A stretch of DNA of 64,000 nt. It comes from Stegostoma tigrinum (Eukaryota). This document shows, piece by piece, positions 1 through 62,800 of this stretch. The stretch's first letter is position 1. Each line of letters begins with the position of its first letter. Both the position numbers and the translations under genes were made by a program. Under the pieces are notes generated by a model. That model made no database searches and was not told the origin of the DNA. It saw only the letters and a program-made list of their open reading frames with translations. The stretch is taken from positions 3,906,001 to 3,970,000 of the forward strand of contig NC_081396.1 of the NCBI RefSeq assembly GCF_030684315.1, given 5' to 3'.

Positions 1-1960
1 GGCCTCTGATAGAAACACAACAAAATGATCATTTTTCTCTCATTTTAAAATTGAACCAAATGACTTTATTGGCCGGTTTCACAGCAATATCTCCACTTTG
101 TATAGCTGTAAAGGTCTCCCAAATTAAAAGCGCCACTCCCGCTTCTGTCTTGCTTCCCGTTTTGTCCTTACGAGAGACATACCTCTGGAACATCAACTGC
201 CAGTCCTATCCTTCTCTGAGGCATTTTGTTCTAATTGAGATCTCCCCATTCATACCTTCAGCCCATCTGAATTCTCTGTCAGTCCTGCTGCTTTCAAATA
301 ACTCTGGTTAAATTTATCAGTCTTACTTCGTCTCTGTCAATCTCTTGTTGTTTTTGACTCTTAAATTGCTCATATCACCTCCTGCACTGGTCTCAGCCTT
401 ACTTTAGTCTTAGTATTGCCATGGCTCCCACCAATGCCATACATTCCCGTGACTAACTTAAAGCCTCACAAGTAGCGAAAACACATTCCCCCTCAAGTTT
501 ATTGGTCCTCTTCCAATTCAGCTTAACCCTTCCCTCTCACACAGGTCACTTGTACCACTGAAGAGATCCCAATGGTCCAAAATGGCGAATCTTTTCCCCT
601 GCAAGACACGGTCAATCACACAATCATGTGCCCTGTCCTTCTATTTCTGCTGTCAAAGTTACAGTCGATACGAAATAAAGGCCAACACGAATTTCGCCAT
701 CCTTATGAATGGCTGTTAATTTAAAAAGTTAGATTTTCTTGTGATTTAAGGACCAGCACACGCAAATGTGTCGTGTTGATTTCTGAATTCATTTCATATT
801 TCAATAATATTTTGCCACTCTGTTTTAGCTCTCAAACTGCATAATCTCACTTTTTCCATCTATTCTCAGTTATTTCATCTGTTTGGCATGAATATGCCAA
901 GTTTTTATTTTCAGATTTTGCTGACTCTCAGGTACAGCCAATATCCCTCAACAATTTTTCTTGTGTCATATTCACCATTTCCCTTTTCTGATATTCTTGT
1001 TTCATTTGCAAACTTACCGACAACACATTGATTTTTCTCATGTAAGTCATTATCGTATCTTTCAATTATTTGTGCACCAAACACTGATTCCTGTGATGCT
1101 ACCTTCGTCAGAAGTTGACATCCTGTGAAGTCCAATTCTTCATCTAAATATATTTCTACTTTGAATTTGGCAATCCTCTGTCCACATTAATGTACTGCCT
1201 CCAAAGTCACGGGCTCCGAGCTGGTTAAGTTATCATACGTGTGGCACCGTATCTAATGTCTTCAGAGAATCTCAGCATCTTGCAAGTCCTGAACCCTCCT
1301 TCTTTTGGATTCTACGTTATCAAATATTTCTACGTTATTTATCAGGCAAAATTTCACTTTCATAAAACTATTTTCTGTCCTCTTGATTATGCTATGTAAT
1401 ATTGAAATGCACTGTTGTTACTTTTTTCAGTAAATGAAGTTAAACAAAATGGCCTTCCTCACCCTTCATGTTATCTTCTCCTTTTTAAATAAAGGTGTTA
1501 TCCAATCATCAGAGTCTTTTCTGAAATTTTATTACTGCTGTAAAATTAAACCCAGCATAACAAACGCTTCTGTCATTTTTTAAATCCTTGATTCGATCTC
1601 ATTATTTGCAATGCACTCATTCATATTTAGTTCAATGATTTAAGTGCTTCTTTTCCCCCAGTGAAACTTTCTTTGTTGTATTCCTCACCCTTATTTGGCC
1701 CTTCCATATTCAGTCATTTTGGAATTCTACTGTGAAGGCAGATGCACAGTATTTTTTCAAAATGTCTATTTCATTATTGTTCCTAAATATGCATTCTGCA
1801 GCTCCAATCATGAGGGCGGTATGTTCACTTTGGCCCTTCTTTTCCTTTCTATATATTTTTGGAAGCGTTTGCTGTCTGTTTTAATATTATCTGCAATTTT
1901 AATTTCAATATTTTCCTGCTCACGCCTCATTAATTTTTTGTTTGCCTTTTGATATTTCTT
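1..1960 (+). repeat. Copy 1 of a long direct repeat (paralogue at about 62047-64000); largely decayed CR1-type LINE sequence
   Basis: Collinear similarity by eye, e.g. CCGGTTTCACAGCAATA, GTACCACTGAAGAGATCCCAA and TGTGATTTAAGGAC(C/G)AGCACACGCAAAT in both copies. Confidence 0.9.
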
Positions 1961-2489
1961 CAAACAATCTGAATACTCTCCTGACCTATCATAATGATGA
2001 CGTTTAATGTAATGCCTCTTTATTCTTTTTTTGATCTCTTTAACTTCCCGCCTTAACCATAATAACTTGTTTCCTTCTGATAATCATTTCTTCTCACTGG
2101 GATATATCTTTGCTCTCAACCAGGAAATATTAAAATCTTAAAAGTATGCCATTGTTCTTCATACGACTTTGCTGCTAAACTCATTTGAAGTCCATTCCAG
2201 CAAGCGTGGCCCTCATTTCTTTGTAATTACACTTCTGTAAGCTTGTTTCCAACACAAGTTACTGTCTCCCCAACTGAAATGAAATTTTATTGTTCCAATC
2301 TAATCTTAGAGTCTGTCATTATTTACCAAATTTGCCTCTTTCTGCATTACTGGATCCAACGTGTCAAGTTATCAGGTTGGATGCACTACATATTGTTTGA
2401 GGAATCTGTCCCACATATGGCCACAGTGGACAGGTCTCTGGCAGTGAGCCTGGACCTGCAAGACAGAAGTGAATGGGGTAGAATCGGAT

Positions 2490-4186: not shown

Positions 4187-4195
4187 TCACTTGAC
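4187..4195 (-). CDS. IGHM: IgM TM2 exon coding part (VK*), giving a KVK cytoplasmic tail
   Basis: TTTTTCAG|GTC AAG TGA. Confidence 0.93.
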   Translation of the reverse strand, partial: VK

Positions 4196-4334: not shown

Positions 4335-4462
4335 CTTCACCAGCGTGACAGCAGCACTATAGAAAATGCTCAGGAAGAACAAGGTGATGAATGCAGAAGC
4401 TGTTGCCCAGATGTTGCCGTTATCATCCTCAAAATCTTCAATCCAATTATGATCTATCGAAT
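4335..4462 (-). CDS. IGHM: IgM transmembrane exon TM1 (DSIDHNWIEDFEDDNGNIWATASAFITLFFLSIFYSAAVTLVK)
   Basis: Acceptor TTCATAG at 4463, acidic spacer plus CART-type TM motif, donor AAG|GTGAGA at 4334. Not in the ORF track; translated by hand. Confidence 0.96.
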
Positions 4463-6168
4463 CTATGAATATAAAGCCGAGACAATGGATTTAGATTGTC
4501 CATTGGTCCAAATGACAAATCTTTATCTAAATAATGTCATCAGGTACCATTACAATTTTTAAAAGCTGACAGGTTGTTCTCAAATTTGTTTCTTGATTTT
4601 TGTCTCTTATTGAGTTAATTACTCTCAGGAATAACTTGCTGATACTAATTTCACATGTTCTTCCTTTGTTATCCATGTCTGAACATTCCGAAGCAGTTCA
4701 TCATTTAAAATGTTCTTGGAGAGTAGGATCATTGTTATCATTCCAGGTGTATTGATTGGGAATGACTGTAGTAATTCGCTCATTATATTTTCCAAACAGG
4801 CTGTGGCAGCTGGTAAAGTTGAATATTGTGGTCATCATTGGAGAAGAGTGCAAATGTGATTACTCATCTTCTTTATTTATATGCATTCAATTGCTTGAAA
4901 AATCATGACCAAAATTTGGATTCAGAGTAAGATCTGTTGTTTTTTTTATTTTTGTGAACCTTTCCTATGTTTTTGCTTTATTGTTTGGGTATGTGGTTAT
5001 GAGTGTCTCTTCCTTCACAGTTTTTCACGTTGAAGCTTATGCATAACTGAACATGTTCATGTCGCCTTGGTGCTGATGTGTTCATTCACATCTTTGTGCA
5101 TGTGTAGGTAAATTGTGTTCAGTCCAGAAGTGTAAGCCACAATATCTTAAGATGCCACTTCATTCTTTGATACCGATCTTTACTTTTTATTGACTTTGTG
5201 ATTTTTATGTTGTGTCGTGCTAATGAAAATGTGTGTTAAAATATCGATATCAGAATCTACCAGACTTAGATTATTTTCATGATTGTACTCCATAAATGTG
5301 TTCTGTTAGTAGGAACCGTCATGTTTTGATTGATGTGTATATTTATGTGATAACGTGATTTCTTTGGCAATGCATCCTCAAACATCTCCCTGATGCGATT
5401 TCTTGTGCGAATGCATGTGAATGTTCACTGGTGTTGTGCCATTCCCGTTTTGTTGCCAATATCCCACTGTGTGTTGATCTTTGCACTTCTAAGTCGACAT
5501 TTGAGTCTCGTAAATTGTGTGTACGCGTGGCCGTGTTTATGTGCTGATCAAATAGTTTAAAATTACGTAACTGAGCTGCATCTTTCTTCATATGACTATT
5601 CTTTCCGCAAGTGAGGTAATAATGAGTTTAAAATTTATGTTGCTCTCATATATGACTATTTGAGTGCACCTGTGGAAGGATACATCTGGGATATTGTATG
5701 TGTGTTTATAAATGCATGTCCGTACGTATTATGGTGTGTGAATGGACATGCATTCATGAGCATTTGTGTGCTGAGGTGTGTCTCCGTTTTTCATGATTAT
5801 GTGCAGTTACCACTGTTTATTTGGGTGTGTTCCTTCTATGCACTGGCCTTTGGTCTTTTTTTGTGAGAAAATACACGACAGCTCATATATCATATGCAAG
5901 TGTGCCTGCCTGCGTGTATCCATCCGTGACAGCTTATCTGTATGTGCATTTCTGTTCGCACATATGTTTGTCCCTGCAAGTGAGAGCTTGTATATGTGTG
6001 TATTTAGACCGCTTGTGAATGTTTGTCTGTATATGTGTTTGTTTAAGGTCTGAAAAAAGACTGTTATTTTTTCATTGTTGAGCTATTTTAATCGATTACC
6101 ATTGATTACATCTGATCCAGATGGTGTGGGGAATATTTCTTGCCGTTATGGGGAGATAAGCACTTTGT

Positions 6169-6489
6169 TAGGGACTTTTGAGATGATTTATAGCTCAGGT
6201 TTTGGGTGGACGTTTGCTCGCTGAGCTGGAAGTTTCGTTTTCACATGTTTCGTCACCATTCTAGGTAACATCATCAGTGAGCCTTCGCTGAAGCGCAGGG
6301 GTTATGCCCTGCTATCTGTGTATGTGTTATGTTTCCTTGGACATCACCAACCCAAGGAAACCCAGACACATAAATAGAAAGCGGGACATAACACCAGCGC
6401 TTCACTGGAGGCTCACGGTTGATGCTACCTAGAATGGTGACGAAACGTCTGAAAACGAACCGTCTAGCTCAGCGAGGAAACTTGATTCC
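6169..6489. mobile_element. Foldback insertion (Penelope pLTR-like, hammerhead motif) with 13-bp target-site duplication
   Basis: Inverted arms about 6212-6340 and 6352-6483; direct repeat ATAAGCACTTTGT at 6156-6168 and 6490-6502. Confidence 0.85.
6241..6280 (-). ncRNA. Minimal type-I hammerhead ribozyme-like motif (probably degenerate)
   Basis: CTGATGA-T-GTTACC-TAGAAT-GGTGAC-GAAAC: conserved core and 6-bp helix II. The triplet after GAAAC is ATG here but GTC in the other arm. Confidence 0.6.
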
Positions 6490-7452
6490 ATAAGCACTTT
6501 GTGATTGATGCAGGTATGTTGGATATAAAATATGTACAAGGCATGTGAAAGAAAGTGACATTCGGTGTTTGTATCCCAGAACTGAGTCCACGGGTTACAG
6601 GATTTTGATTCAAAAGTCTGGCAAATATTTGGAATAATGCCAGTTTGGCTTTGAATGATGCAGAACTAATTTTAACAAATGATTAATGGTTCAAGCGTGT
6701 CCAACAGGCTTCAAAGGAAGTATGTTGCGTGGAAAATTTAAATCATTGGTTGTAAGGAAGAAGCTGATTGTTCCTGTAAGCTGCAAAATCACATTGCAGA
6801 GGGCGTACAACGTGAAAACTCGGCAAGGGGATTGAGCAGATAGTCCGTTAATTGTTGTACTCTCTCTTGTCGCTTGACAAGAAAAAAAAAATTCTTCCTG
6901 TCATATTTTACGTGAAAGTGAAGATACATTGTGTCGACTGATGCACTGTTGCGAGATCCCTGACAGTCCCCAGATAAAAATAGGATAAATTCAAATCATT
7001 CTGAACACGACATGCTTTTTGCCCAAAGCAGTACTATCTTGTTGGCTTGTTCCAATAGAGAATACGTTTAAATGTCTCTAACGTTTATTTTCTCAGGTAG
7101 TGCAACGGAGCAGTTTAAAGCTGGAATGAAATTTATCGACATGGGCCATTGAGGAATATGGGAAACAAAAATCATAATTCGTGATGTTCATTTGCGATGA
7201 ATTGGGCATTGCCAAATTTTGTCAAAGTGTGATTTAGGTTGGAATAGGTACTTTGCAGAATCCTGCGATTAGTGAACTTCATTCTGTCACTGAACAGGGC
7301 CGATCTGAGCAAGGACCATTAACTGTGCAAGCAAAGGTTATGGACGTGCTAACTGCCGACATCGACTGGCAGGACAAAATACTTTTAAAAGTGGGAAACA
7401 CAATCAATTAAACTGTTGTCAATTTACATCACAATTGGAGGAAAGAAAATGG

Positions 7453-7494: not shown

Positions 7495-7886
7495 TCATTG
7501 GCATGAATTAATGGTGTCCATGAGTGCAAGCGAAATATTCACAAAACTCGGTTTACCGCTGGATTTATCAACTGTTCTGTTGATGATCTTCAATGGAATC
7601 GCTTCATGTCCCACCACACAGGAGTAAGAAGCACCGCTGGCCCACTCCTCCGCAGCAATGGATAATAGGCTGTACAAGAAGAAGGAGGTGTTATCGCTCT
7701 CTGCCGTCACCTCGGTGTTCTTATAGTTAGTGGGATTAACTGGCTTGTCGTTGGTTGTCCACTTGACAAAGATCTCTCGGGGCCTGAAACCTCTCACTAA
7801 ACAGGTGAGCGAAACAAACTTCTGTGCGGAGACGTCTTCTGTCGTTGGCAGGAGGACAGAAACCGATGGCTCCAACGGATTTATCA
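7495..7886 (-). CDS. IGHM: IgM constant exon Cmu4 plus secretory tailpiece ([20 protein letters not shown]); internal donor for the membrane form after 7557
   Basis: Acceptor TTCTGCAG at 7887, C1-set domain, tailpiece with N-I-S sequon and penultimate Cys, stop 7497-7495, cryptic donor AGCG|GTAAAC at 7556. Confidence 0.97.
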
Positions 7887-24048: not shown

Positions 24049-24095
24049 CTGAAGTCACAGTCACCATGGTTCCTTGTCCCCAGTATCCAAGTCGT
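24049..24095 (-). CDS. IGHJ: JH segment (RLGYWGQGTMVTVTS)
   Basis: WGQG motif, phase-1 donor CAG|GTAAGA at 24048, RSS immediately upstream. Confidence 0.97.
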
Positions 24096-24134
24096 CACAA
24101 TGTTACATTCCATGGACTGGGTCACACAGTAACT
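24096..24134 (+). other. JH 5' RSS (23-spacer)
   Basis: CACAATG 24096-24102, 23 nt, ACAGTAACT 24126-24134. Confidence 0.88.
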
Positions 24135-24461
24135 GCCTCTGCACAAAACAAACAAAAACTGTCATTATTTTAAGTCATCATAACTAGAGGCAAAACAAAA
24201 TCACAACAAATCTTCATTACGTTATAATTGTGCAAATGGAGTCTGCTCATTCTTGATAACAGATTCTAATATTTTACACTCCTTAGAATAACACATGAAG
24301 TGATTGTCAGTATCACCAACTAATTATCAATAATTATCGCCGTTTTCACAAATTAAACCGTGGTATTCAGTCATACCCCACAGAACTGATACTGCACCGA
24401 ACATTCAGATAGTTTGCAAAAAGTAATTACTGACCCAGTTCCTTACAATGAGAGATGAACG

Positions 24462-24489
24462 TGTTTATGTATTGATCATATTGGCTGTG
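24462..24489 (-). other. D2 3' RSS (12-spacer)
   Basis: CACAGCC 24489-24483, 12 nt, ACATAAACA 24470-24462. Confidence 0.85.
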
Positions 24490-24503
24490 CTACCCCAGTA
24501 GGT
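24490..24503 (-). CDS. IGHD: DH2 segment ACCTACTGGGGTAG (frames TYWG / PTGV / LLG*)
   Basis: 14 nt flanked on both sides by 12-spacer RSS, at the expected position between D1 and J. Confidence 0.9.
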
Positions 24504-24531
24504 CACTGTGAGATGCATGATATCAAATACT
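24504..24531 (+). other. D2 5' RSS (12-spacer)
   Basis: CACTGTG 24504-24510, 12 nt, TCAAATACT 24523-24531. Confidence 0.82.
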
Positions 24532-24844
24532 ATGGTGGGCTGTATACCGTAAAATGCAGATACCCATGTTCACTGAATCCTAAAAAAAAGAACTGGTTCA
24601 GCCTCCTCTAAAAATGATGCAGTGCAAAAGTGTAGATTTTACTTCCCATTGTATTTTTAAAGGAGCTTGCAATATAATTTCATGTTTGGTGTACATTTAA
24701 CGTGTCGGTCTATCGGAATAAAGCAGAGGAATTCTGTTCATTCCTACAAATGAGCTTTACTGGTCTGCATTTTAATTAAGTCTGATATTATTTGTCCCTC
24801 CTGCTATGGCCGTCGTCGCCAATTTGAACGAAACACTTGTAAGT

Positions 24845-24882
24845 GGTTTCTGAACGACGATGACATTGTTCACATCACTGTG
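24845..24882 (-). other. D1 3' RSS (22-spacer)
   Basis: CACAGTG 24882-24876, 22 nt, TCAGAAACC 24853-24845. Confidence 0.92.
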
Positions 24883-24896
24883 ACCCACTGTAGTAT
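24883..24896 (-). CDS. IGHD: DH1 segment ATACTACAGTGGGT (frames ILQW / YYSG / TTVG)
   Basis: 14 nt between two perfect CACAGTG heptamers in opposite orientation. Confidence 0.95.
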
Positions 24897-24924
24897 CACA
24901 GTGATGTAAACCTGCACAGAAGCT
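24897..24924 (+). other. D1 5' RSS (12-spacer)
   Basis: CACAGTG 24897-24903, 12 nt, ACAGAAGCT 24916-24924. Confidence 0.92.
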
Positions 24925-25295
24925 GCCCTCATTGTTTGTTCCATATTCTGCCTCAATTTTGATGTGGAATAGAGATTTAGTACTGATCATTGTGGAATGA
25001 ATGCCATAACTTGCATAATGCAATTAGCAGAGATTTCATGAGGATACAGGTGAAATCAAATTTGCATAATGTTCAAGTCTTTCATTTGTGGAACTATTAG
25101 CAGTACGTACGCCATGCCTAATACTTCATACTTTATTTTATTGCTTGTTTGGTAAGTTTTAATTGTTCATTTCCTCTGTCATAGTTTTGTCAGAAGCATT
25201 TTGAGGTCTACTTCGCATTATAGTTGTGAATGTCACATTGACGACAAGTACTCACGATTAGTTTACAGTTGTATCTACAAAGTGTCTCCTCGTGC

Positions 25296-25334
25296 TGTTT
25301 GTGTACATGTCCAACCGTTGTTCCTCACTCTGTG
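25296..25334 (-). other. VH 3' recombination signal sequence (23-RSS)
   Basis: Heptamer CACAGAG (25334-25328), 23-nt spacer, nonamer ACACAAACA (25304-25296). Confidence 0.92.
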
Positions 25335-25639
25335 GTCTCTTGCACAGTAGTAGATGGCGGTGTCTTCGAACTTCAGGCTCTTCATCTCCAACGCGAAGAT
25401 GTTGTTTGACGTGTCTTTGGACGCACTAAATCGATCTTTAATCGCTGGCGCATAGTCATTGCTTGATGAAGTATAGTAGCTAACCAACCACTCCAGACCC
25501 TGTCCAGGAACCTGCCGGACCCAATACATTGTGTAGCTGCCAAGGTCGAACCCGCTGGTTTTACAGGTCAGTCTCAGGGAGCCTCCAGGTTGGCTGTTCC
25601 CTGCCTCTGGCTGAGTCAAAGTAACCTCCGACTGGACAA
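25335..25639 (-). CDS. IGHV: VH gene segment exon ([52 protein letters not shown]...[11 protein letters not shown])
   Basis: Acceptor TTTTGAAG at 25640. Canonical V-domain Cys, WVRQ and YYCAR motifs, open frame (ORF 25275..25763), followed directly by an RSS. Confidence 0.98.
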
Positions 25640-25763
25640 CTTCAAAAAGAAAATAAAATATGACCAGTTTTACTGATGAAATGATTCCTACATCTTTTAC
25701 ATTCCAGGAGTACGTGAACACGTAAATGATAACAAACAGAAACTTGCAGAAAAAAATACTCAC

Positions 25764-25812
25764 AGGATAAGAAAGTCAGAAACAAACTGAGAAAAATCGT
25801 CGACGTTGTCAT
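25764..25812 (-). CDS. IGHV: VH leader exon ([16 protein letters not shown] + 1 nt)
   Basis: ATG at 25812-25810, hydrophobic signal peptide, phase-1 donor T|GTGAGT at 25763. Confidence 0.93.
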
Positions 25813-25900
25813 TCTGGTAACTTGGGAGAAAAGATTCTGCCAAGAACTTTTTAAACACACCCCAAATCAAGGAGTGTTGAATGAAGGTGCAGTGACCAGA

Positions 25901-32389: not shown

Positions 32390-34450
32390 TTGTAGAACAA
32401 AAACAAAGTTGCTGGAAAAGTTCAGCAGGCCTGGCATCATCTGTGGAGGAGAAAACAGAGTTAACATCTGGGGCCCTTCCTCAGAACTGATGCCGGCTGG
32501 GCAAAACATCAGTTTACATGCAAAAATTGTGATGTGGGTGGGGTCGGGACTTATGGATATGATAGAGCCCAAAGAGAGAGAAAGACAGTTGGACAGAAAA
32601 ACGATTTGCTAATGATCAGCCTGGGAGGGTGAAGAGTTGTGAATGGGAACTGTTCGTGACTGACAAACGTGGGGTCTGGAGTGGCAGGCAATTTGTTAGC
32701 AAGTCCTGGTGTGTGGGCTCGGGGGCTGGGACATGGGAGAGTTTCAGCCCTCAAATGATTGAACTCAATATTGAGTCCAGAGGGCTGGAGGGTCCCCAAG
32801 TGGAAAATGAATTTTTTTTTCAGCCAGCTTGCGCTGGGCTTCACTGGTACTCTGCAGAAAGACGGAGACAGAGATGTTGGCCAGGGAGCAAGGTGGTGCT
32901 TTGAAGTGGAAGGGAACAGATAGTTCAGGGTCTATTTTGCGAGCAGAATGTAGATGTTCTGCAAAGCAGTCACCAAGTCTATGCTTCGCTTCCCCAATGT
33001 AAAAGTGACCACAGTGTGAGCAGGGAATGCAGTAGACTAGATTCTTGGAAGTGCACGTGATGTGTTGCTTCACCTGGAAGGTATGTTTGAGCCCTTGGAC
33101 ACCGGGGAGGGAGGAGGTAAATATGCAAGTGTTGCACCTTTGCCAGTTACAGGGGCATGTCCCATAGGGCTGTGGAGGGGTGCTGCCGGTGAAGGAAGTA
33201 TGGACCAAGTTTTCCCAGAGGGAACAGGCCCTGCGGAATTCAGCCAAGGGAGTGGAAACGAATATGCCCCTGGCGGTGGCATCCTGCTGGAGGTGCTAGA
33301 AATGGCGTCCGATGATTTTCTGGATGTGGATGCAGGTGGGATGGTAGGTGAGGAGAAGGGGAACGCTATTGCTGTTGTGGGAGGGAAGAGAAGGCATGAG
33401 GGCGATAAAGTTAGGGTTAGGGTTAGGGTTGTGTTAGGTGCATGAGGTAGCTTGGACCTGATTGGGTTCAGAGGTGGGGAATCCTCAGTTGAGGAAGAAT
33501 GTGGACATTTCAGAGGCTCCTTTGTCAAAGTTGGCTTCAGCCTAACATATGCTATGGAGGCAGAGAAACTGAGAGAATAGGATGGAGTCTTTACTGGAAG
33601 TGGGGTGTGAGGATGTGTAGTCCAGGTAGCTGTGGGAGTCGGTGGGTTTACGGAGGATATTAGTGGCCAGTCTATCCCCAGAAATGGAAAGAGAAATGTC
33701 GAGGAAGGGAAGGGAGGAGTCAGAGATAGGCCAGGTGACAGTCAGGGCAGGGTGGAAATTGCGGTTGAAAGTAAGGAAGTTTTCCAATTCTTGACGAGAA
33801 AGGGAAGCAGCACTGATGATATCATCGATATGTCTGAGAAAGATCCGTGGGTGGCGGCTGGAATCGAACTGGTACAAAGAATGTACCAGGTACCCGACAA
33901 AGAGACAGGCTTACCTCATGCCCATGTGGGTGCCCAGAGCAATCCCTCTTATCTGAAAAAAAAAATGAGAGGAGTTGTTAGAGAAATGTTTGAATCCATC
34001 ATAAGACATCAGATGAATCATGGATGTATGTGGGTAGGGAAGGAATGGGTGGAGAAGCTTGAGTCAAGGCAGGAATAGATGAGATCTGTGGGGCATGAAC
34101 AGGCTGAAACAATGGGCCTGCCCGGACAGCCCCGTTTTTGGATTTTTTGAAGGAGGTAGAAACGAGTTGTGCGGGTTGAGGGACTATTAACTTGGAAGCG
34201 GATGAGGGGAGATCACCGGATGAAATGAGATCAATATGCAACGTGGATACAATGGCTGGATTTGCCATGGTGGAGTCATGGTCAAGGGGAAGGTAGGAGG
34301 ATGTATCTGCGAGCCTGGGGTCATCCTCTGTAACAGAGAGGTCAGTATGCTAGACAACAATAGCACGCCCCTTATTGGCAGGGTTGATGACAAAGTTAGG
34401 GTTAGATTTGAGTGCACAGAATGCAGTCAGTTTGGAGGCATGTTGTAGAA
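32390..34450 (-). mobile_element. Penelope-like retroelement, decayed (RT + GIY-YIG endonuclease + terminal repeat)
   Basis: RT remnant FLRHIDDI...LPFLDISLSISGDRL...KPTDSHSYLDYTSSHP (33542-33877). GIY-YIG remnant NLVYCIPCSHCGHFYIGEAKHRLGDCFAEHL (32765-33247). Terminal-repeat-like tract at 32390-32520. Confidence 0.92.
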
Positions 34451-59829: not shown

Positions 59830-62800
59830 CACGGAACATAGAACAGCACAGCATATTACAGGCTCTTTAGCCCGTGATGTGGTGGTACCTGTTATACCAC
59901 TAAGATCAATCTACTCTGCATACCCTCCATTTTATTCTCCTGTATGCTCCTATCCACGAGTGGCTCAGAAGTTTCCAGAGTGTCTGACTCCACTACCACT
60001 GTTGGAAGCAAATTCTACATGCTCACCACTCTCCATGTGAGAAATTACTTCTGATGTCTTTCTTACCTCCCTCCAATCGCCTTAAAATTATGTCCCCTCA
60101 TAATAATAATTTTCACCATTTGAAAAATAAAATGTCTCTGACTATCCACTCTATCCGTGCATCCCATCATCTTGTATAGCTCTATTAAGTCATCTCTCGT
60201 ACTTCTTCACTTCAATGGCAAAAAAGCCCTAGCACCTTCAACCTTTCATCATAAGATCTGGCCACCAATCCTGGCAGCATCCTGGTAAACCTCCTCTGCA
60301 CCCTCTCTAAAGCTTCCACTTTTCACTAGTGATGAGGTGGACCTGAAATGAACACAATACTCCAAATGTTGTACAAACAGAATTTTACACAGTTGCAGCA
60401 TAACCTAACAGTTCTTGAACACTAGCCCACTGTCAATGAACACGAATCCATCACACAACCTCTTTTCAACCCGATCAATTTAATAGCAACTTTGAGAGAT
60501 CAATGGACGTTGTTCCCAATATCCCTCTGTTAATCCACACTGCTGAGTATCCGGTCATTATGCTTGTAATCTGCATTTAAATCCTATCTTCCAAAATGAA
60601 TTACTTCACACTTTACTGGTTTGAATTCCATCTACCATTTCCTTGCCCAGCTCAGCATTCTGTCAATGTCTCGTTCCAACGACAACAGCACTCCATGCAT
60701 TCCACAATCCACCAACCTTCGTGTCATCGCCAAATTTATTAAGCCACCCTTTCACTTCCTCATCCAAGCCGTTTGTAATGATCATAAAGAGCAGATCTCC
60801 CACATCAGACCCCTGGGGAACACCACTGGTCACCGTGCTCCAGGCTGAATACTTTCCATCTCCGAAAATATTCTGACTTTGTCTCATCAGTTTTGGCTAT
60901 TCCGGATGCATGCAAATCCCATCCCACAGAATCCAACAACTCACCCATTACTGCCTTCAGGCTCACCAGTCTGTAGTTCCTTAGATTCTTCATCTTGTCT
61001 TTCCTATTTAAATAGCAGCACCACAGGAGCCACACTCCAGTCTTCCTGAACCTCACCTGTGGCTGTCGATGGTATGAATATCTCAGTCAAGGGCCTCAAA
61101 ATCTCTTCCCCAGATTCACATTAAGCTCTAGGGAGCACGTTATCATTTCCCTCGTTTCCCAGCTCCCAAGTTTTCACTCCTCTCTCCACAGTAAATTCCG
61201 ACGCAAAATATTCGTGTAGAACCTCACCCATCTCCCTTGCTTCCACGCATAGACGGCCACGTTGATCTTAAAGGGTCTCTATTTTTTCCCGAGTCACTGA
61301 ATTGCCCGTAATGCAATCAAAGAAATACTGAGATTCTCGTTATCTCCATTTACCAGTCTGTCTCATGTCCACCTTTGCCCTACCAAGATGCCTCTCAGGT
61401 ATACTATTTCTGCAATTACACTCTTCTCAATATACACTCGATCCAAGCTATCCATATCTCATGATTGCCTTCCTTTAGTATGCTAGAGACACAAATCCTC
61501 TACTCATCCAGCATTCCCTACTCCAACAGCGTTACCCTTTGCACAAATAGGTATGTCCTGGAGCTGAACTGCCGTTATCTCATCCTTAAAGTTCTCCGAC
61601 TTCCCAATCATTCCTTTAAATTTGAATATTTTCTCTCAATCAATTTCGCACAGCTCCTGCCTTAAGCTATCAAAATTGTCCTCACTCTAATTCAGAATAT
61701 TATTTTTTGCGCAGTTCTCTCGTTTCCCCTAATTCTTTTCAAACCGATATAATTATAGTCACTAGCCACAAAGTTACCCTCCACATAGACAATAGTCAAT
61801 TGCCCTGCATTACTTCGAAACAGAACGTCAAGGAAAAAAAAAATCTCCAGTTGGTACAACCACGTATTGAATAAGGACGTTTTCTTGTGAACAGTGCCAA
61901 TTTCCTCCACGTCCAAGCTCTCAACTGTGTGACAGTCTCATTCTGTGTTTGGAAAGTTAAAACCCTCTCCCATTATGCTATTTTTCTTCCAGATATCCGA
62001 GATCAGCTCGCATATTTGCTTCTGATTTTCCCACACACTTTTGGGAGGCCTCTAACACAAACCAAATAAGATGATCATCCTTCTCTCATTTTAAAATTGA
62101 CCCACATGGTTTCACTAGCCGGTTTCACAGCAATACCTCCACTTTGTATAACTGTAAAGTTCTCACAAAATAAAAGCGCCACTCCCCCTTCTGACTTGCT
62201 TCCCATTGTCTCCTTACTATAGCCGTACCCCTGGAACATCAACTGCCAGTCCTGTCCATCTCTGACGCAGTTTTTCTAATTGCAATCTTCCCGAACATAC
62301 CTGAAGCCTATCTGTATTCTCTGTCAGTCCTGTTGCTTTCAAATAACAATGTTTAATTAATTCGTCTTACTTTGTCTTTGTCAATGTCCTGTCGTTATTG
62401 CCTATTTAATTGATCATATTATCTCCTGTATTGGTTTCAGACTTACTCTTTTCTTCCTATTGCTTTGGTTCCCACCACTGCCATACCATTCCCCCAACTA
62501 ACTTAAAGCCTCACAAACAGTGTAAGCGCATACCCCATCATGGATATTGGTTGTCTTCCATTTCGGCTGGAAACCTTCCCTCTTACACAGATCATTTGTA
62601 CCACTGAAGAGATCCCAACGGTCCAAAAAAGGCAAAACTTGTCCCCTGCAAGACATCATCAGCCACACAATCATATGCCCTATTCTTCTACTCCTACTCT
62701 CAAAGTTACAATAGATAGGAAATAAAGCCCAACACTAATTTCGCTTTCCTTATAAGTGATTGTTAAATTTAAAAAAAGTTCGATTTTGTTGTGATTTAAG
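59830..62800 (-). mobile_element. CR1 LINE, long decayed copy (ORF2 endonuclease-RT to 3' UTR)
   Basis: YSAWSTVTSGVPQGSDVGDLLFMIITNGLDEEVKGWLNKFGDDTKVGG (60663-60887) and NYRLVSL (60805-61056). Confidence 0.9.

What the first reader, a model, noticed from the sequence alone, without database searches (positions are those of the whole stretch)
6156..6502. Hammerhead-bearing foldback insertion in the intron that decides secreted versus membrane IgM
Seen: a 321-bp insertion with a perfect 13-bp TSD and about 130-bp inverted arms sits between the secretory polyA site and TM1. On the IgM sense strand it reads CUGAUGA-U-GUUACC-loop-GGUGAC-GAAAC, an intact hammerhead core with helix II, but with AUG at the cleavage triplet. 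The opposite arm keeps GAAAC-GUC but has CGGUUGA in the core. Known: Penelope-like element terminal repeats carry minimal type-I hammerheads. Inference: an active copy would cut only the membrane-form pre-mRNA, so loss of the triplet may have been selected. The long hairpin could still affect splicing/polyA competition or be edited by ADAR.
Basis: partly seen in the sequence, partly recalled or inferred. Interest (0 to 1): 0.7.

Follow-up and report, generated by a model that had tools for sequence, protein, structure and literature searches.

The report
Decayed Penelope transposon in shark IgM
A short broken piece of a very common Penelope retrotransposon sits as a hairpin in an antibody-gene intron of a cartilaginous fish; its ribozyme motifs are damaged in the way most copies in the genome decay, and it likely plays no part in choosing secreted versus membrane antibody.

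Summary
In detail: a 321-bp insert (6169-6489), 13-bp TSD, inverted arms and two damaged minimal hammerheads, inside the CH4-TM1 intron of an intact-looking IgM cluster. It is an ordinary 5'-truncated Penelope/Poseidon-type insertion: an inverted terminal repeat joined head-to-head to a terminal repeat with its tail. Longer copies carry the RT and GIY-YIG ORF. The genome holds 10,347 exact intact hammerhead 3' halves, 38 of the first 100 listed in such head-to-head pairs. One insertion was copied by tandem duplication into 6 of 21 IgM loci; 15 lack it. The regulatory reading is not supported. The hammerhead has a loopless 2-bp stem III (dimer-dependent), has one sense copy in the gene, and is predicted to be locked in the hairpin (33-52 kcal/mol to open, even in intact copies). 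The only core lesion shared by all six on the mRNA strand is a CpG transition found in 1,599 matches genome-wide; AUG is in 4 of 6. A hit by chance has p about 0.73. The insert evolves no slower than the intron. Unexplained: the arms aged unequally (12 versus 2 shared substitutions).

The parts
6156..6168 (.). Target-site duplication, left copy (13 bp)
   Evidence: single copy at empty paralogous sites
6169..6203 (-). PLE 3' tail (about 41 nt in the family, 6-nt deletion here), on this arm only
6204..6340 (-). Penelope terminal repeat (pLTR), sense on the IgM mRNA strand; 3' arm of the hairpin
6241..6280 (-). Minimal type-I hammerhead, damaged: G16.2>A (6 of 6 paralogs) and C17>G (4 of 6)
6340..6489 (+). 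Inverted, tail-less pLTR, including the last codons of the GIY-YIG ORF; 5' arm of the hairpin in the pre-mRNA
6413..6452 (+). Second minimal hammerhead, antisense to IgM, damaged at U4 and A6 (6 of 6)
6490..6502 (.). Target-site duplication, right copy
7557..7886 (-). IgM CH4 exon up to the internal donor used for the membrane form
   Evidence: Pfam C1-set E 6e-21; joint 7557-4462
7495..7556 (-). Secretory tailpiece and stop codon
7453..7467 (-). Two AATAAA signals of the secretory form
   Evidence: function inferred from position
4335..4462 (-). TM1 exon
4187..4195 (-). TM2 coding part (VK-stop)

Best explanation
This is a severely 5'-truncated Penelope/Poseidon-type retrotransposon insertion (tail-bearing terminal repeat plus inverted tail-less terminal repeat, 13-bp TSD) in the CH4-TM1 intron of 6 of 21 IgM loci, and it is likely a neutral passenger whose hammerheads likely never cut the IgM RNA. 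Shown: family identity, copy number, empty sites, one origin followed by tandem duplication, damage to both hammerheads, no slowing of substitution. Inferred: the element's GIY-YIG endonuclease nicked both target strands 13 bp apart and reverse transcription started at the tail end on one side and at the tail start on the other, both stopping after about 150-170 nt, which gives the head-to-head foldback. Predicted: in the membrane-form pre-mRNA the antisense arm is made first and zips onto the hammerhead, so the intron carries an inert hairpin that is spliced out; both hammerheads then decayed by CpG and ordinary substitutions.
For: Family: 80 matches from 40 scored of 3,932 candidates; 10,347 exact intact 27-nt hammerhead 3' halves; 19 head-to-head pairs and no other close arrangement among the first 100 listed, spacing 69-2,855 nt. 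The 20 non-IgM copies aligned have their own inversion junctions, and most have 8-14 bp direct repeats at the ends. Six of six longer copies show the same inverted layout; their ORF pieces include RT (RVT_1 E 8.8e-9) and GIY-YIG (E 0.015, below the Pfam cut-off) running into the same terminal repeat. Layout matches PMC3846280 and PMC8557442; tail between two RT starts and both strands extended in PMC11167929; dual min-HHRs on opposite strands 100-700 bp apart and inactive monomers in PMC4209133. Paralogs: 6 filled, 15 empty. Variable-site rate among the six: insert 42/321, intron 250/2,668, CH4 9/325. G16.2>A in 1,599 matches against 10,347 intact; any C17 change in 142. P(core hit | 12 changes) = 0.73. 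Opening the core costs 41 kcal/mol here and 46-52 in six intact family copies. No second family copy in the window.
Against: No RNA of this species was examined, so isoform ratio and editing are untested. The filled loci are 6 of the 11 with intact CH4, donor and TM1, so the insert sits in likely functional genes and lengthens the intron from about 2,850 to 3,094 nt; intron size affects intronic polyA use in IgM as cited in PMC3708835. 42 of 48 substitutions in the arms break pairing on the mRNA strand, against 75% expected from the flanks (p = 0.064; transitions only 14 versus 6, p = 0.12). The insert varies slightly faster than the intron (p = 0.046). Arm ageing is unequal (12 versus 2 shared substitutions, p = 0.015), which simple neutral decay does not explain. 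A preprint (10.64898/2026.07.22.740005) reports depletion of retrozymes in Xenopus introns, though 42-44% still overlap introns.
Confidence: 0.86

Rival explanations
1. Passive modifier: the added length and the long hairpin slow or alter CH4-TM1 splicing (or attract ADAR or dsRNA sensors), slightly shifting these six genes toward the secreted form, and selection has been weakening the hairpin.
For: Hairpin z = -17.6; in 6 of 11 loci with intact 3' ends; pair-breaking changes 42 of 48 (p = 0.064) and 14 versus 6 transitions (p = 0.12), with no such lean in the family control, 45 versus 48; intron-size effects in PMC3708835.
Against: About 1 kb from donor and polyA signal and 1.7 kb from the acceptor; the hairpin encloses no exon or known signal; both tests are post hoc and not significant; still -176 to -198 kcal/mol after decay; another paralog carries a 4.0-kb intron with intact signals; related organisms' contigs show the empty site as well as secretory-tail and TM joints.
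Confidence: 0.09
2. One reading: the sense-strand hammerhead was active, cut only membrane-form pre-mRNA, and was inactivated by selection.
For: The motif is in sense orientation, lies downstream of the secretory polyA signals, and is damaged in 6 of 6 copies. PLE hammerheads can be protein-assisted (PMC11167929).
Against: Loopless 2-bp stem III needs a dimer and only one sense copy exists; sequestered by the antisense arm; the shared lesion is the family's common CpG change; AUG only in 4 of 6; the antisense-strand motif is dead too; chance of a hit is 0.73.
Confidence: 0.03
3. The foldback is itself a mobile unit (a MITE-, SINE- or retrozyme-like element with hammerheads in both polarities) amplified from a master copy.
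For: Many copies of similar length came up in the first search.
Against: That search selects for length. Junctions differ from copy to copy, pair spacing runs from 69 to 2,855 nt, longer copies run into the ORF, and the IgM arm's private changes occur only in the six paralogs.
Confidence: 0.02

Closest known systems
Penelope/Poseidon-clade PLE insertions with inverted pLTR, tail and TSD (PMC3846280, PMC8557442, PMC11167929)
   Same: Head-to-head inverted terminal repeats, tail on one end only, TSD, 5' truncation, parent ORF with RT then C-terminal GIY-YIG, hammerhead in the pLTR.
   Different: Truncated almost to the terminal repeats alone; tail about 41 nt against the 30-40 nt described; lies in an IgM intron and was multiplied by gene duplication.
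Minimal type-I hammerheads of metazoan PLEs (PMC4209133)
   Same: Extra nucleotide between A9 and G10.1, G10.1-C11.1 pair, long helix II, palindromic 15.2-16.2 with no loop III, opposite-strand pairs 100-700 bp apart.
   Different: Helix II is 6 bp and helix I 3 bp at its core; both motifs here carry inactivating changes.
Non-LTR retrozymes (10.64898/2026.07.22.740005)
   Same: Short non-coding, pLTR-derived, hammerhead-bearing sequence.
   Different: Retrozymes are head-to-tail tandem repeats that can form dimers; this is a single head-to-head inversion that cannot.
Inverted Alu pairs in primate introns (PMC2533698 and others, search listing only)
   Same: Retroelement-derived dsRNA in a pre-mRNA, a possible substrate for editing or splice effects.
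   Different: The arms are adjacent and enclose no exon; no effect shown here.

Membership tests
Penelope-like elements (EN+) | Parent ORF with RT followed by C-terminal GIY-YIG endonuclease | tested here: met
   Longer copies: RVT_1 E 8.8e-9 with YVDD; GIY-YIG E 0.015 (below cut-off) with VIYKIPC-x2-C...YIGQT motif, ORF ending inside the repeat. Seen in pieces from different copies; no full-length ORF recovered.
Penelope-like elements (EN+) | Inverted 5'-truncated pLTR next to a pLTR, head-to-head | tested here: met
   19 of 19 close pairs head-to-head
Penelope-like elements (EN+) | 30-40 nt tail on one end only | tested here: met
   41-nt family tail; here at 6169-6203 only; one copy (L008) shows part of the tail on its second arm too
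Penelope-like elements (EN+) | Target-site duplication with empty site | tested here: met
Penelope/Poseidon clade | CCHH motif in the endonuclease and no Cys zinc-finger linker between RT and EN | tested here: met
   By eye on the 282-aa frame of L053, criterion from PMC8557442
Penelope/Poseidon clade | RT phylogeny groups with named Poseidon elements | not tested
   No named reference sequences were on hand
Minimal type-I hammerhead ribozyme | CUGANGA, helix II and GAAA core | tested here: met
   Minus-strand motif 6277-6248; broken in the plus-strand motif
Minimal type-I hammerhead ribozyme | Stem III pairing (15.2-16.2 palindrome) and NUH triplet | tested here: not met
   G16.2>A and C17>G in the window copy; met in 27 of 40 non-IgM arms
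Minimal type-I hammerhead ribozyme | Second sense copy for the dimer fold | tested here: not met
   No other family copy in the 64-kb window
Minimal type-I hammerhead ribozyme | Rfam hammerhead model hit | tested here: inconclusive
   No hit at E <= 10, but none either on an intact copy
Minimal type-I hammerhead ribozyme | Self-cleavage | not testable with these tools
   Needs in vitro assay
Non-LTR retrozymes | Head-to-tail tandem units | tested here: not met
   Single inversion; no same-strand close pairs among 100 listed

The most novel reading that the evidence does not exclude
A Penelope-made hairpin fixed in the ancestor of the six duplicated, intact IgM clusters measurably tilts their secreted/membrane output, and selection has since been breaking its pairing; its two unequally aged arms would also record priming of the two target strands on two different element RNAs, or later gene conversion of one arm.
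Probability: 0.08. Interest if true: 0.55.

Novelty: new member of a known kind. Interest (0 to 1): 0.15.

Why it matters
As found, it is one of probably thousands of Penelope foldback insertions in this genome; its value is as a clade marker for six IgM clusters and as a natural filled-versus-empty comparison within one gene family. If the hairpin did shift the secreted/membrane ratio, it would be a case of a transposon tuning the oldest known antibody isoform switch cluster by cluster. The foldback family also offers a genome-wide way to test how Penelope elements make inverted ends and whether their hammerheads are purged from introns.

Tried and rejected
Rfam scan: no hammerhead hit, but the control on an intact copy was also blank, so uninformative. 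Expression and editing: no RNA holder listed for this stretch; only contigs could be laid, and A-to-I editing cannot be read from them. Contigs of organisms A and B show the empty site; lack of a filled junction there is no proof of absence. A diverged subfamily as source of the left arm: exact and 2-mismatch patterns found only the six IgM copies. ADAR origin of the arm's shared changes: 1 of 12 is A>G on the sense strand. Foldback as a mobile unit: rejected. Conservation of the hairpin: rejected. A generic min-hammerhead descriptor found no intact motif in the window. Literature: searches listed nothing on Penelope insertions in shark IgM introns; they cover only the open library, so this is no proof that it is unreported. 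PMC5785218 (dimer cleavage) is not held and is known here only through PMC6765202. Earlier scan notes: none by place or by sequence. No family covariance model was built, since it would match by homology alone.

Full report
Observation. The insert is as described: 321 bp between identical 13-bp repeats at 6156-6168 and 6490-6502, with inverted arms of 116 nt at 84% ungapped or 136 aligned positions with 27 differences. The mRNA strand folds at -176 kcal/mol, z = -17.6. The host gene is on the minus strand: V, two D, J, CH1-CH4, secretory tail, TM1 and TM2 with open frames and plausible splice sites (Pfam V-set and C1-set). The label 'cartilaginous-fish IgM cluster' rests on this V-D-D-J-C cluster layout and on my recall of shark IgM sequences. 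The membrane splice 7557 to 4462 is seen in a contig of a related organism, a run only guessed to be RNA. The insert is mid-intron, about 1 kb below donor and polyA signals and 1.7 kb above the acceptor.

Identity. A search of the own genome gave 3,932 first-look candidates, of which 40 were scored. An exact 27-nt pattern for the intact hammerhead 3' half has 10,347 matches and the reversed control none; among the first 100 listed, 19 pairs lie head-to-head within 3.5 kb and no pair lies otherwise. Of 30 loci fetched, 4 were duplicates and were dropped; the 20 non-IgM copies have different inversion junctions, a tail on one side, and mostly 8-14 bp direct repeats at the ends. Six longer pairs were fetched; all six are inverted repeats, and their frames include an RT (RVT_1 E 8.8e-9) and a GIY-YIG region with the CCHH pattern (E 0.015, under the Pfam cut-off) that ends inside the same terminal repeat. 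No full-length ORF was recovered. This is the layout described for Penelope/Poseidon elements: inverted pLTR, tail at one end, TSD (PMC3846280, passages; PMC8557442, passages). PMC11167929 (parts 1-2 of 4) shows both target strands cut and extended and two RT start sites bounding the tail; applying that to this insert is my inference.

History. Twenty-one IgM CH4-TM loci lie on the contig. Six, spaced about 117 kb apart, carry the insert at the same site; 15 lack it, and the 14 of those aligned at the site hold the target once. The six form one clade on a stem of about 0.09 substitutions per site and also share an 85-bp deletion just right of the TSD. All six have intact CH4, donor and TM1; 5 of the 15 empty loci do. 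Upstream exons of the paralogs were not checked. DNA contigs of organism C show both filled junctions and the empty site; contigs of organisms A and B show the empty site.

The hammerhead. The family motif is a minimal type-I hammerhead as defined in PMC4209133 (parts 1-2 of 4): an extra base after A9, long helix II, and a palindromic 2-bp stem III without a loop. That paper found no cleavage by a single motif, low cleavage by dimers, and already notes opposite-strand pairs 100-700 bp apart; PMC6765202 (passages) reviews the dimer requirement. Core and triplet are intact in 27 of 40 non-IgM arms and 0 of 12 IgM arms. The window has no second copy of the family. In the hairpin the whole core and helix II are paired with the other arm; forcing the hammerhead's helix II and open core costs 33-41 kcal/mol in four IgM copies and 46-52 in six intact family copies. 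So even the ancestral insert is predicted to have been inactive in this RNA. Rfam finds no hammerhead here, nor in an intact control.

Selection. On the mRNA strand the only core change shared by all six is G16.2>A at a CpG; C17>G came later or was lost, being in 4 of 6. Genome-wide the same G16.2>A occurs in 1,599 matches, 13% of intact plus changed, while all three C17 changes total 142. With 12 shared substitutions on that arm, simulation gives 0.73 for at least one core hit. The motif on the non-transcribed strand is also broken. Among the six paralogs the insert varies at 0.131 per site, the flanking intron at 0.094 (p = 0.046) and CH4 at 0.028: no constraint on the hairpin.

Results against this reading. 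Pair-breaking substitutions are somewhat more common than the flank spectrum predicts: 42 of 48 over the whole arms (p = 0.064) and 14 versus 6 transitions in the well-aligned zone (p = 0.12); the family control is 45 versus 48. These tests were post hoc. The arms aged unequally before duplication: 12 substitutions and 2 deletions on the tail-bearing arm, 2 substitutions on the other, both in its CUGAUGA core and 2 nt apart (p = 0.015 for the asymmetry). No other place in the genome shares the private changes. Two templates, gene conversion or a mutation cluster could each explain it; none is shown. Intron size is cited as affecting IgM intronic polyA use (PMC3708835, passages), and the filled introns are about 240 nt longer. 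A preprint (10.64898/2026.07.22.740005, abstract and part 1 of 2 of Results) reports retrozymes depleted in Xenopus introns, yet 42-44% overlap them. No RNA of this species was examined.

Verdict. A real but ordinary Penelope foldback insertion with decayed minimal hammerheads (confidence 0.86). A passive effect on isoform ratio remains possible (about 0.09); selected loss of an active ribozyme is unlikely (about 0.03). Interest 0.15.

Noticed in passing
window 6169-6340 versus 6340-6489, six paralogs L001-L006: Unequal ageing of the two arms: 12 substitutions and 2 deletions shared by all six on the tail-bearing arm, only 2 on the other, both in the hammerhead core. Unexplained.
   Followed up: partly
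G000:C55:3.25-4.87 Mb: 21 IgM CH4-TM loci; five of the roughly 117-kb tandem units pair an intact insert-bearing cluster with a degenerate one about 16 kb away (GG at the CH4 donor, TM1 frameshift).
   Followed up: partly
window 6503-6514: 85-bp deletion just right of the TSD, shared by the six filled paralogs and absent from empty ones.
   Followed up: partly
L076 (G000:C55:4866700-4873700): CH4-TM1 intron of about 4.0 kb, some 1.15 kb longer than in other empty paralogs, with intact-looking signals; the extra DNA was not identified.
   Followed up: no
window 32550-34350, minus strand: Broken second Penelope-like element of another family, with RT-like and GIY-YIG-like frames and a Cys-rich linker suggestive of the Neptune type (by eye only).
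   Followed up: no
window 24060-25815, minus strand: Unrearranged V-D-D-J with recognisable recombination signals; the frame after the J-side heptamer candidates includes a stop upstream of WGQG, so J boundaries need checking.
   Followed up: no
window 7084-7089 and 6187-6192, minus strand: A third AATAAA in the intron at 7089 and a TATAAA inside the element's tail at 6192; no evidence of use.
   Followed up: no
L017, L018, L025: Both arms share 3 private changes in each of these copies, as expected if both were copied from one template; L020 is lopsided (11 versus 3) like the IgM copy.
   Followed up: partly
window 1-2300 and 60400-62700: Decayed LINE (CR1/L2-like, label recalled) fragments by translation.
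   Followed up: no
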